Origin: Escherichia coli
GTDB lineage: Bacteria; Pseudomonadota; Gammaproteobacteria; Enterobacterales; Enterobacteriaceae
Direction: 5' to 3' (one strand)
DNA length: 64,000 nt
Assembly (NCBI RefSeq): GCF_013122565.1
Contig: NZ_CP053258.1
Positions within the stretch are counted from its first letter, which is position 1. Every line of letters starts with the position of its first letter. The notes under the pieces are model-generated. The model did no database searches, was not told the DNA's origin, and worked only from the letters and a program-made list of their open reading frames with translations. Below, piece by piece: positions 17,478 through 17,582 of the stretch. The position numbers were made by a program, and so were the translations under genes.

Positions 17478-17582
17478 TCCCTGATACCTTTTTGTAGAAA
17501 TATTGACCGTGCATCCGCGGTCAATGTTAGCTATTATGTTGCGCCCTTTTTTTACGGGTGTTAACAAAGGAGGTATCAACCC

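What the first reader, a model, noticed from the sequence alone, without database searches (positions are those of the whole stretch)
17478..17582. Inverted repeat between yacC and speE
attgaccg-tgcatc-cgcggtcaat (17503..17526) forms an 8-bp perfect inverted repeat 26 bp after the yacC stop and about 55 bp before the speE start. It could be the yacC terminator or an operator for the speED operon.
Basis: seen in the sequence. Interest (0 to 1): 0.2.

Follow-up and report, generated by a model that had tools for sequence, protein, structure and literature searches.

The report
Conserved hairpin overlapping the speE promoter
The inverted repeat between yacC and speE in E. coli is real: it is the core of a conserved RNA hairpin that lies on top of an already mapped internal speE promoter, it is not a terminator, and it is a modest refinement of how this operon is read rather than a surprise.

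Summary
An 8-bp perfect repeat alone is weak evidence, with about 8 expected per window. Here it is the core of a 13-15 bp stem-loop (17499-17528, dG -17.2, z -5.5). Across 56 distinct Enterobacteriaceae spacers 85% of cells stay paired and four pairs show compensatory changes. G:U pairs outnumber A:C pairs 4:1, which points to a sense-strand RNA hairpin.

It is not a canonical terminator. There is no U-tract, and published Term-seq lists no 3' end in the spacer.

Published 5'-triphosphate TSS mapping places a speE start at window 17543 (MG1655 136504, minus strand). That puts the repeat at -41 to -18, the invariant CCGTGCA at the -35 position, and the conserved TATnAT at -10. The DNA is therefore promoter, and the hairpin exists only in read-through RNA from the yacC promoter.

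In Escherichia the read-through spacer folds into a very stable three-way junction (z -7.4) that masks the speE Shine-Dalgarno. The short promoter-proximal mRNA is unstructured. The masking helix is not conserved beyond a few lineages.

An operator role remains untested. The finding is ordinary to mildly interesting.

The parts
17107..17107 (+). yacC transcription start, the source of read-through yacC-speED RNA
   Evidence: Kim et al. 2012 supplementary TSS table lists MG1655 136940(-), 11 reads, 5' UTR 23 nt. Coordinates convert as K-12 = 154047 - window position.
17130..17477 (+). yacC coding sequence (115 aa, PulS/OutS pilotin-like lipoprotein), stop at 17475-17477
   Evidence: ORF list, RefSeq annotation and Pfam PF09691 on its homologues.
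17482..17493 (+). P1 5' strand. UGAUACCUUUUU, 5 nt after the yacC stop, is complementary to the speE Shine-Dalgarno region. This feature is specific to the Escherichia lineage.
   Evidence: The MFE fold of the spacer includes it. The duplex is -14.8 kcal/mol, matched by 3 of 300 shuffles of the 5' segment. It is not in the family consensus.
17499..17528 (+). P2, the stem-loop whose core is the reported inverted repeat. In E. coli it has 13 bp and a CAUC loop at 17512-17515. In the family consensus it extends to 17494-17531 with a 2-nt bulge.
   Evidence: define it. G:U 104 against A:C 27 is.
17502..17509 (+). 5' arm of the reported repeat, ATTGACCG
17518..17525 (+). 3' arm of the reported repeat, CGGTCAAT. 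It lies in the promoter spacer at -25 to -18.
17507..17513 (+). CCGTGCA, at -36 to -30 of the speE promoter. It is the -35 position but a poor match to TTGACA.
   Evidence: CCGTGC is invariant in 56 of 56 spacers that carry the element and the full CCGTGCA is present in 53 of 56, including those where the hairpin is broken.
17532..17537 (+). -10 hexamer TATTAT of the internal speE promoter, preceded by an invariant GC
   Evidence: TATGAT 33, TATCAT 11, TATTAT 10, others 2 of 56. It ends 6 nt upstream of the mapped TSS.
17543..17543 (+). Mapped primary transcription start of speE, giving a 40-nt 5' UTR
   Evidence: Kim et al. 2012 supplementary table lists MG1655 136504(-), 18 reads, with an upstream sequence identical to window 17493-17543.
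17537..17566 (+). P3, the second conserved hairpin (UGUUGCGCCC, U-rich loop, GGGUG-UUAACA). Its 5' strand straddles the TSS, so the full stem forms only in read-through RNA.
   Evidence: defines it. 91% of cells are paired and 2 pairs show double changes. It is in the RNAalifold consensus.
17567..17578 (+). P1 3' strand, AAGGAGGUAUCA, which contains the speE Shine-Dalgarno GGAGG at 17569-17573
   Evidence: The probability that the SD is paired is 0.98 in the full spacer and 0.44 in the RNA starting at the TSS.
17583..18449 (+). speE (spermidine synthase) coding sequence

Best explanation
The inverted repeat is the GC-rich core of a conserved stem-loop (P2) encoded on the sense strand of the yacC-speE spacer. 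The same DNA is also the upstream half of an internal speE promoter.

Shown: the hairpin is conserved with compensatory changes and a sense-strand G:U bias. A primary speE start maps to window 17543. That places the repeat at -41 to -18, the invariant CCGTGCA at the -35 position and the conserved TATnAT at -10. No 3' end is reported in the spacer.

Inferred: because P2 lies upstream of that start, it exists only in RNA that reads through from the yacC promoter (start 17107). In that RNA, P2 and a second conserved hairpin (P3) compact the spacer. In Escherichia this lets a 12-nt stretch that begins 5 nt after the yacC stop pair with the speE Shine-Dalgarno, closing a three-way junction. The read-through mRNA would then have a masked speE ribosome binding site, opened mainly when a ribosome terminates at the yacC stop (translational coupling) or otherwise translated poorly. 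The short mRNA from the internal promoter has an open site. On this reading the repeat is a structural RNA module that makes speE translation depend on which mRNA isoform carries it. It is not a terminator.
For: - The hairpin is real and stable: dG -17.2, z -5.5.
- Across 56 distinct Enterobacteriaceae spacers 84.8% of cells pair, against 26-49% when partners are slid. Four pairs show changes on both sides, and 0 of 500 shuffles reach the covariation score.
- An independent RNAalifold consensus recovers P2 and P3.
- G:U pairs number 104 and A:C pairs 27 in P2, so pairing is kept on the sense strand only.
- TSS mapping gives speE at 136504(-), 18 reads, and yacC at 136940(-), 11 reads.
- The -10 hexamer is T-A-T-n-A-T in 54 of 56 spacers and the full CCGTGCA is present in 53 of 56.
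- The whole spacer folds at -41.5 kcal/mol, z -7.4, with the Shine-Dalgarno inside a 12-bp helix.
- The probability that the Shine-Dalgarno is paired is 0.98 in the long RNA and 0.44 in the short one. The short RNA is unstructured, z +0.57.
- The anti-SD duplex is -14.8 kcal/mol, matched by 3 of 300 shuffles.
- Kosakonia and one C. amalonaticus genome instead pair the post-stop segment with the start codon region: 1, 7 and 7 of 300 shuffles are as stable.
- When speED is absent (C. freundii complex) the whole element is absent.
Against: - The masking helix P1 is not conserved across the family. The mean z of the post-stop/ribosome-binding-site duplex is only -0.37, most genera are no better than composition-matched shuffles, and P1 is missing from the consensus fold.
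- How much yacC transcription reaches speE is unknown. Term-seq shows an abundant 3' end inside yacC at 136766.
- The hairpin is broken in about 9 of 56 spacers (Raoultella, some Kosakonia-like) that keep the promoter motifs, so it is dispensable there.
- The shuffle controls do not correct for phylogeny.
- No experiment on translation was available.
- The 1989 promoter paper by Xie, Tabor and Tabor could not be read.
Confidence: 0.42

Rival explanations
1. The hairpin is a weak, conditional or vestigial terminator, or a 3'-end-protecting stem-loop, for yacC. It would stop or stabilise yacC transcripts just before the speE promoter. The AU-rich -10 region (UAUUAUGUU) would serve as an imperfect U-tract.
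For: - It lies 22-51 nt after the yacC stop, the usual place for a terminator or stabiliser hairpin.
- With the consensus extension the stem ends at 17531 and is followed by UAUUAUGUU, 6 U in 9 nt.
- In the Enterobacter cloacae complex the same position holds a terminator-like hairpin, AACCGCTTCACGGCGGTT followed by TTGTGTTG.
- In the C. freundii complex, which lacks speED here, yacC is followed by a GC-rich hairpin.
Against: - No terminator-like site is called on the + strand in E. coli.
- The stem base is AU/GU-rich and the tail is not a U-run.
- No 3' end between 136460 and 136599 appears in the Term-seq tables, although ends inside yacC and after speD were detected.
- The E. cloacae variant has lost the -10 box, so it is a different arrangement rather than a homologue of this one.
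Confidence: 0.2
2. The repeat is a DNA operator. A dimeric regulator would bind the dyad centred at about -29.5 and block, or remodel, RNA polymerase at the internal speE promoter.
For: - The sequence has dyad symmetry.
- It spans -41 to -18 of a mapped promoter.
- The -35 match is poor (GTGCAT, 2-3 of 6), so a bound factor could matter.
- CCGTGCA is more strongly conserved than a weak -35 would seem to need.
Against: - The half-sites are not conserved alike. The 5' arm top is invariant, while the 3' arm varies, co-varies with outer 5' positions, and is lost in Klebsiella and Raoultella.
- G:U pairs outnumber A:C pairs 4:1. A DNA dyad would not tolerate G:T any better than A:C.
- Text searches found no regulator of speE.
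Confidence: 0.15
3. The repeat has no function of its own. The region is conserved only because it is a promoter, and the complementarity is incidental.
For: - Eight-bp perfect repeats occur by chance about 8 times per window.
- The most invariant blocks are promoter elements.
- About 9 of 56 spacers lack the hairpin.
Against: - Compensatory changes occur at four pairs.
- 85% of cells pair, against 26-49% in slid controls.
- The G:U bias is specific to the sense strand.
- Promoter spacer sequence is normally free to vary, yet here it tracks the 5' arm.
Confidence: 0.12
4. The spacer is a ligand-sensing riboswitch-like element, for example one that responds to polyamines or decarboxylated SAM, controlling speE.
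For: - There are two covarying helices with a highly conserved joining strand upstream of a biosynthetic gene.
- The predicted fold is very stable.
Against: - The conserved joining strand is explained by the -10 box and the mapped TSS.
- The closing helix is not conserved.
- There is no Rfam match at E-value up to 10 apart from snoRNA noise.
- The main speE mRNA lacks most of the structure.
Confidence: 0.04

Closest known systems
Long-range mRNA structures that mask a downstream ribosome binding site and couple it to translation of the upstream cistron (for example rpmI-rplT in the E. coli IF3-L35-L20 operon, or coat-replicase in phage MS2). This comparison is from my own knowledge, not tested here.
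   Same: A segment next to the upstream stop codon pairs with the downstream Shine-Dalgarno. Intervening local hairpins bring the two strands together. A terminating ribosome would be expected to open the helix.
   Different: The masking helix is supported only by prediction, and only in Escherichia and a few other lineages. The two genes are functionally unrelated. A second, internal promoter yields an mRNA that bypasses the structure altogether.
Internal promoters inside operons, which produce several transcription units. Conway et al. 2014, PMC4161252, report that 36% of E. coli operons are complex.
   Same: A mapped primary start at 17543, with a conserved -10 box, lies between two co-oriented genes of one annotated operon.
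   Different: The promoter's -35 and spacer DNA also encodes a conserved, covarying RNA hairpin that is present only in the read-through isoform.
Rho-independent (intrinsic) terminators
   Same: A stable stem-loop lies shortly after a stop codon. The equivalent site in the E. cloacae complex does look like a terminator.
   Different: In E. coli there is no U-tract, the stem base is AU-rich, and Term-seq lists no 3' end.
Palindromic repressor operators that overlap the -35 and spacer of a promoter
   Same: The sequence has dyad symmetry and lies at -41 to -18 of a mapped promoter.
   Different: The half-sites evolve asymmetrically and by compensatory change, the G:U bias is strand-specific, and no cognate regulator is known.

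Membership tests
Intrinsic terminator | GC-rich stem-loop | tested here: met
   The stem has 13 bp with a GC-rich apical half and dG -17.2.
Intrinsic terminator | Run of U immediately 3' of the stem | tested here: not met
   The tail is GUUAGCUAUUAUGUU, or UAUUAUGUU after the extended stem. The consensus scan calls no + strand site in 16800-17800.
Intrinsic terminator | RNA 3' ends mapped just after the hairpin | tested here: not met
   The Term-seq tables of Adams et al. contain no position from 136460 to 136599.
Sigma-70-type promoter | -10 hexamer close to TATAAT at the correct distance from a start | tested here: met
   TATTAT at 17532-17537 ends 6 nt before the TSS at 17543. T-A-T-n-A-T is present in 54 of 56 relatives.
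Sigma-70-type promoter | -35 hexamer close to TTGACA, 16-18 bp upstream | tested here: not met
   The hexamer is GTGCAT (17-bp spacer), 2 of 6 in E. coli and 3 of 6 as GTGCAA elsewhere. The scan finds no promoter. TTGACC at 17503-17508 is 23 bp from the -10, which is too far.
Sigma-70-type promoter | Experimentally mapped primary (5'-triphosphate) start | tested here: met
   Kim et al. 2012 list 136504(-) with 18 reads. The orthologous K. pneumoniae region also has a speE TSS. This rests on one data set; the minus-strand part of the Cappable-seq file was cut.
Palindromic operator of a dimeric regulator | Dyad symmetry overlapping the core promoter | tested here: met
Palindromic operator of a dimeric regulator | Both half-sites conserved in sequence | tested here: not met
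   The 5' arm top is invariant. The 3' arm varies, co-varies or decays.
Palindromic operator of a dimeric regulator | A cognate DNA-binding protein | not testable with these tools
   Text searches found none. EMSA or a pull-down is needed.
RBS-masking intercistronic structure / translational coupling | A strand complementary to the downstream Shine-Dalgarno | tested here: met
   17482-17493 pairs with 17567-17578 over 12 bp, -14.8 kcal/mol, matched by 3 of 300 shuffles.
RBS-masking intercistronic structure / translational coupling | Masking helix conserved or covarying among relatives | tested here: not met
   Mean z is -0.37 over 55 spacers and the helix is absent from the consensus fold.
RBS-masking intercistronic structure / translational coupling | Downstream translation depends on upstream translation | not testable with these tools
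   This needs fusions with altered yacC stop codons.
Conserved structured RNA hairpin | Compensatory base changes and strand-specific G:U tolerance | tested here: met
   The controls are not corrected for phylogeny.
Any Rfam family | Covariance-model match | tested here: not met
   The only hits are two sub-threshold eukaryotic snoRNA models, E-values 0.055 and 0.31.
REP/BIME-type repeated extragenic palindrome | Many copies per genome | tested here: not met
   The median is one place per genome in 5424 E. coli genomes.

The most novel reading that the evidence does not exclude
The read-through yacC-speED mRNA may carry a genuine regulatory RNA switch. In this reading the P1/P2/P3 three-way junction hides the speE ribosome binding site and is opened by yacC translation, or tightened by polyamines, which stabilise RNA helices. 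Spermidine synthase output would then depend on promoter choice (mRNA isoform) and on cellular polyamine level. The promoter DNA would be dual-coded to also specify the RNA hairpin.
Probability: 0.12. Interest if true: 0.55.

Novelty: new member of a known kind. Interest (0 to 1): 0.3.

Why it matters
speED makes spermidine, and its control in E. coli is poorly described. This work shows that the spacer holds an internal promoter and that a conserved RNA hairpin is written over it.

That gives a concrete, testable model. Two mRNA isoforms would differ sharply in how accessible the speE ribosome binding site is. It also removes a plausible but wrong annotation of the repeat as a yacC terminator.

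The region is also a small case study of one stretch of DNA under joint selection as promoter and as RNA structure. The effect on understanding is incremental unless the isoform-specific translation is confirmed.

Tried and rejected
- The Rfam scan of 16900-17900 at E-value up to 10 found nothing relevant.
- The consensus promoter and terminator scan called nothing at the repeat, and it missed the mapped promoter because the -35 is weak.
- I first thought the whole spacer might be a conserved riboswitch-like three-way junction. I rejected this because the closing helix fails shuffle tests in most genera, is absent from the RNAalifold consensus, and the conserved joining strand is a -10 box with a mapped TSS.
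- By inspection I considered TTGACC (17503-17508) as the -35 (23-bp spacer, too long), a sigma-54 -24/-12 reading (spacing off by one, GG not conserved), and ArcA, NtrC, Nac, PurR, ArgR and MerR-type sites. None fitted, and none was tested rigorously.
- The paper search for 'speED' matched 'speed' and was wasted.
- The 1989 promoter paper (PMC210225) and Thomason et al. 2015 are not held.
- The supplements of the SMRT-Cappable-seq, Romero 2014, Conway 2014, ROSE and Rend-seq papers had no usable entries.
- The Cappable-seq table is cut after the plus strand.
- The protein search with YacC returned only relatives at 85% identity or more, so it did not deepen the alignment.
- The repeated-element idea (REP/ERIC) was rejected because the spacer is single-copy.

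Full report
**Locus.** The window is E. coli DNA. cueO lies on the - strand at 15414-17003. yacC (17130-17477), speE (17583-18449) and speD (18465-19259) lie on the + strand. RefSeq annotation of 5,425 E. coli genomes confirms this, as does MG1655, where K-12 coordinate = 154047 - window position. The 105-nt spacer (17478-17582) is single-copy, at least 99% identical in 5,397 of 5,424 genomes, and carries no annotation.

**Observation.** ATTGACCG (17502-17509) and CGGTCAAT (17518-17525) form a perfect 8-bp inverted repeat with an 8-nt gap. Such repeats are common: the window has 32, against 8.4 +/- 3.6 expected, so the repeat alone proves little. On the + strand as RNA, however, the stem extends to 13 bp (17499-17511 with 17516-17528, loop CAUC). 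It has dG -17.2 and z -5.5 and ranks in the top 0.6% of 38-nt windows.

**Comparative evidence.** A YacC-based scan of one genome per species returned 80 Enterobacteriaceae loci.
- 66 loci keep yacC followed by speE, and 56 distinct spacers carry the element.
- For the 13 pairs of P2, 84.8% of cells are standard pairs, against 26-49% when partners are slid by 1-3 columns.
- Four pairs show changes on both sides (for example A-U, U-A and G-U at 12:35, and A-U, C-G and U-A at 13:34). None of 500 column shuffles reaches the covariation score. These controls ignore phylogeny.
- RNAalifold on 44 whole spacers, run independently of the E. coli fold, predicts the same hairpin, extended by a GCUGA/UUAGC stem to 17494-17531. 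It also predicts a second hairpin, P3, at 17537-17566 (counts).
- In P2, G:U pairs (104) outnumber A:C pairs (27). A:C pairs would be the wobble pairs on the opposite strand. The pairing is therefore kept in sense-strand RNA, not in duplex DNA or antisense RNA.

**Not a terminator.**
- The stem is followed by GUUAGCUAUUAUGUU, and the scan calls nothing on the + strand.
- The Term-seq tables of Adams et al. list 3' ends at 134751/2 (after speD), 136766 (inside yacC) and a bicyclomycin-sensitive site at 136337 (inside speE). No position between 136460 and 136599 appears.
- In the E. cloacae complex the corresponding site does carry a terminator-like hairpin with a U-rich tail. Those spacers have also lost the -10 box, so they are a different arrangement.
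- In the C. freundii complex speED is missing. yacC is followed by a GC-rich hairpin and convergent yacL, and the whole element is absent. The element therefore travels with speE.

**It sits on a promoter.** The supplementary TSS table of Kim et al. 2012 (5'-triphosphate-specific RACE-seq) lists a speE start at MG1655 136504(-). It has 18 reads and a 40-nt 5' UTR, and its upstream sequence is identical to window 17493-17543. The table also lists a yacC start at 136940(-) with 11 reads. The speE start is window 17543.
- TATTAT (17532-17537) is the -10. Among relatives it reads TATGAT, TATCAT or TATTAT in 54 of 56 spacers, varying at the least critical position.
- The CCGTGC block of CCGTGCA (17507-17513) is invariant in all 56 spacers. 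This motif occupies -36 to -30, the -35 position, but matches TTGACA poorly, which is why the scan missed the promoter.
- The reported repeat spans -41 to -18.
- In K. pneumoniae, where yacC is not adjacent, the orthologous region keeps CCGTGCA and has a speE TSS 11 nt further upstream. The hairpin's 3' arm is lost there, as it is in Raoultella.
- The promoter elements are therefore universal. The hairpin is present in about 47 of 56 spacers.

**Consequence.** P2 lies upstream of the internal start, so it can exist only in RNA that reads through from the yacC promoter.
- The whole E. coli spacer folds into a three-way junction of -41.5 kcal/mol (z -7.4, 0 of 200 shuffles as stable). In it, 17482-17493, which begins 5 nt after the yacC stop, pairs with 17567-17578, which includes the GGAGG of speE.
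- The probability that the Shine-Dalgarno is paired is 0.98 in this RNA and 0.44 in the RNA that starts at 17543. The short RNA is no more structured than shuffles, z +0.57.
- The anti-SD duplex is better than 297 of 300 shuffles of the post-stop segment.

This helix is not a family-wide feature.
- Mean z over 55 spacers is -0.37.
- Only Escherichia, one C. amalonaticus genome and Kosakonia stand out. In the last two the helix covers the start codon instead.
- The consensus fold omits it.

**Interpretation.** I therefore commit, at moderate confidence, to this reading. The repeat is the core of a structural RNA hairpin in the intercistronic spacer of the read-through yacC-speED mRNA, written over the -35 and spacer DNA of the internal speE promoter. 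In Escherichia it helps close a structure that masks the speE ribosome binding site. speE translation from the long isoform would then be low, or coupled to ribosomes terminating at yacC, while the short isoform is freely translated.

The hairpin, its conservation, the promoter overlap and the absence of 3' ends are shown. The effect on translation is inferred.

**Rivals.**
- A weak terminator or stabiliser for yacC.
- A DNA operator for an unknown dimeric factor.
- No function at all.
- A ligand-sensing switch, which is unlikely.

No Rfam family matches. Text searches found no described regulator or structure for this spacer. The 1989 paper on the speED promoter could not be read. From memory only, it placed the operon promoter about 475 bp upstream of speE, which agrees with the 136940 start.

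**Verdict.** The terminator reading is rejected for E. coli. The operator reading is positionally plausible but is disfavoured by the pattern of sequence change. The internal promoter is already in a public data set. The overlapping conserved hairpin and the isoform-specific masking model appear not to have been described, but they are of a familiar kind.

Noticed in passing
window 17281 (MG1655 136766, minus strand), inside yacC: Term-seq lists an abundant 3' end (score about 33,800) in the middle of the yacC coding sequence in one condition. Many yacC-promoter transcripts may therefore stop or be processed about 175 nt after their start, before reaching the spacer.
   Followed up: no
window 17710 (MG1655 136337), inside speE: The Term-seq Rho table lists a bicyclomycin-sensitive (Rho-dependent) 3' end region about 127 nt into speE.
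   Followed up: no
window 17547-17557 and 17587-17597: UUUUUUUACGG in the speE leader is complementary to CCGAAAAAAAA at codons 2-5 of speE (11 nt, 91%). This pairing would enclose the ribosome binding site in a 29-nt loop in the short mRNA. The A-run is present only in Escherichia and some Citrobacter.
   Followed up: partly
L032, L033, L035, L037-L039, L041, L044 (Enterobacter cloacae complex), about 1877-1905 in L035: These spacers lack both the hairpin and the TATnAT box. They have a terminator-like hairpin, AACCGCTTCACGGCGGTT followed by TTGTGTTG, between yacC and speE, with no obvious replacement promoter. How speE is transcribed there is unclear.
   Followed up: partly
L003, L005, L007, L009, L016-L021, L024 (Citrobacter freundii complex): speED is absent at this locus. 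yacC is followed by a GC-rich hairpin or REP-like sequence and then convergent yacL, or another gene in L020 and L024.
   Followed up: partly
K. pneumoniae MGH78578 152189(-); Raoultella loci L075-L079: The speE TSS in Klebsiella lies 11 nt upstream of the E. coli position and uses a TATAGT box that occupies the former 3' arm of the hairpin. Many Enterobacter-type spacers carry both TATAGT and TATCAT boxes in tandem.
   Followed up: partly
window 17528, minus strand (MG1655 136519, plus strand): Cappable-seq lists a weak antisense primary start (score 2.45) inside the spacer, pointing back into yacC. A CATAAT box lies just upstream of it on that strand.
   Followed up: no
L022-L051 (Enterobacter, Lelliottia, Huaxiibacter types), spacer columns 62-75 of alignment A1: A tandem duplication, GGGTGTAAC then GGATGTTAAC, lengthens the speE leader by about 10 nt. 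The first copy forms the 3' strand of P3.
   Followed up: partly
window 18465: As annotated, speD starts with TTG, 15 nt after the speE stop.
   Followed up: no
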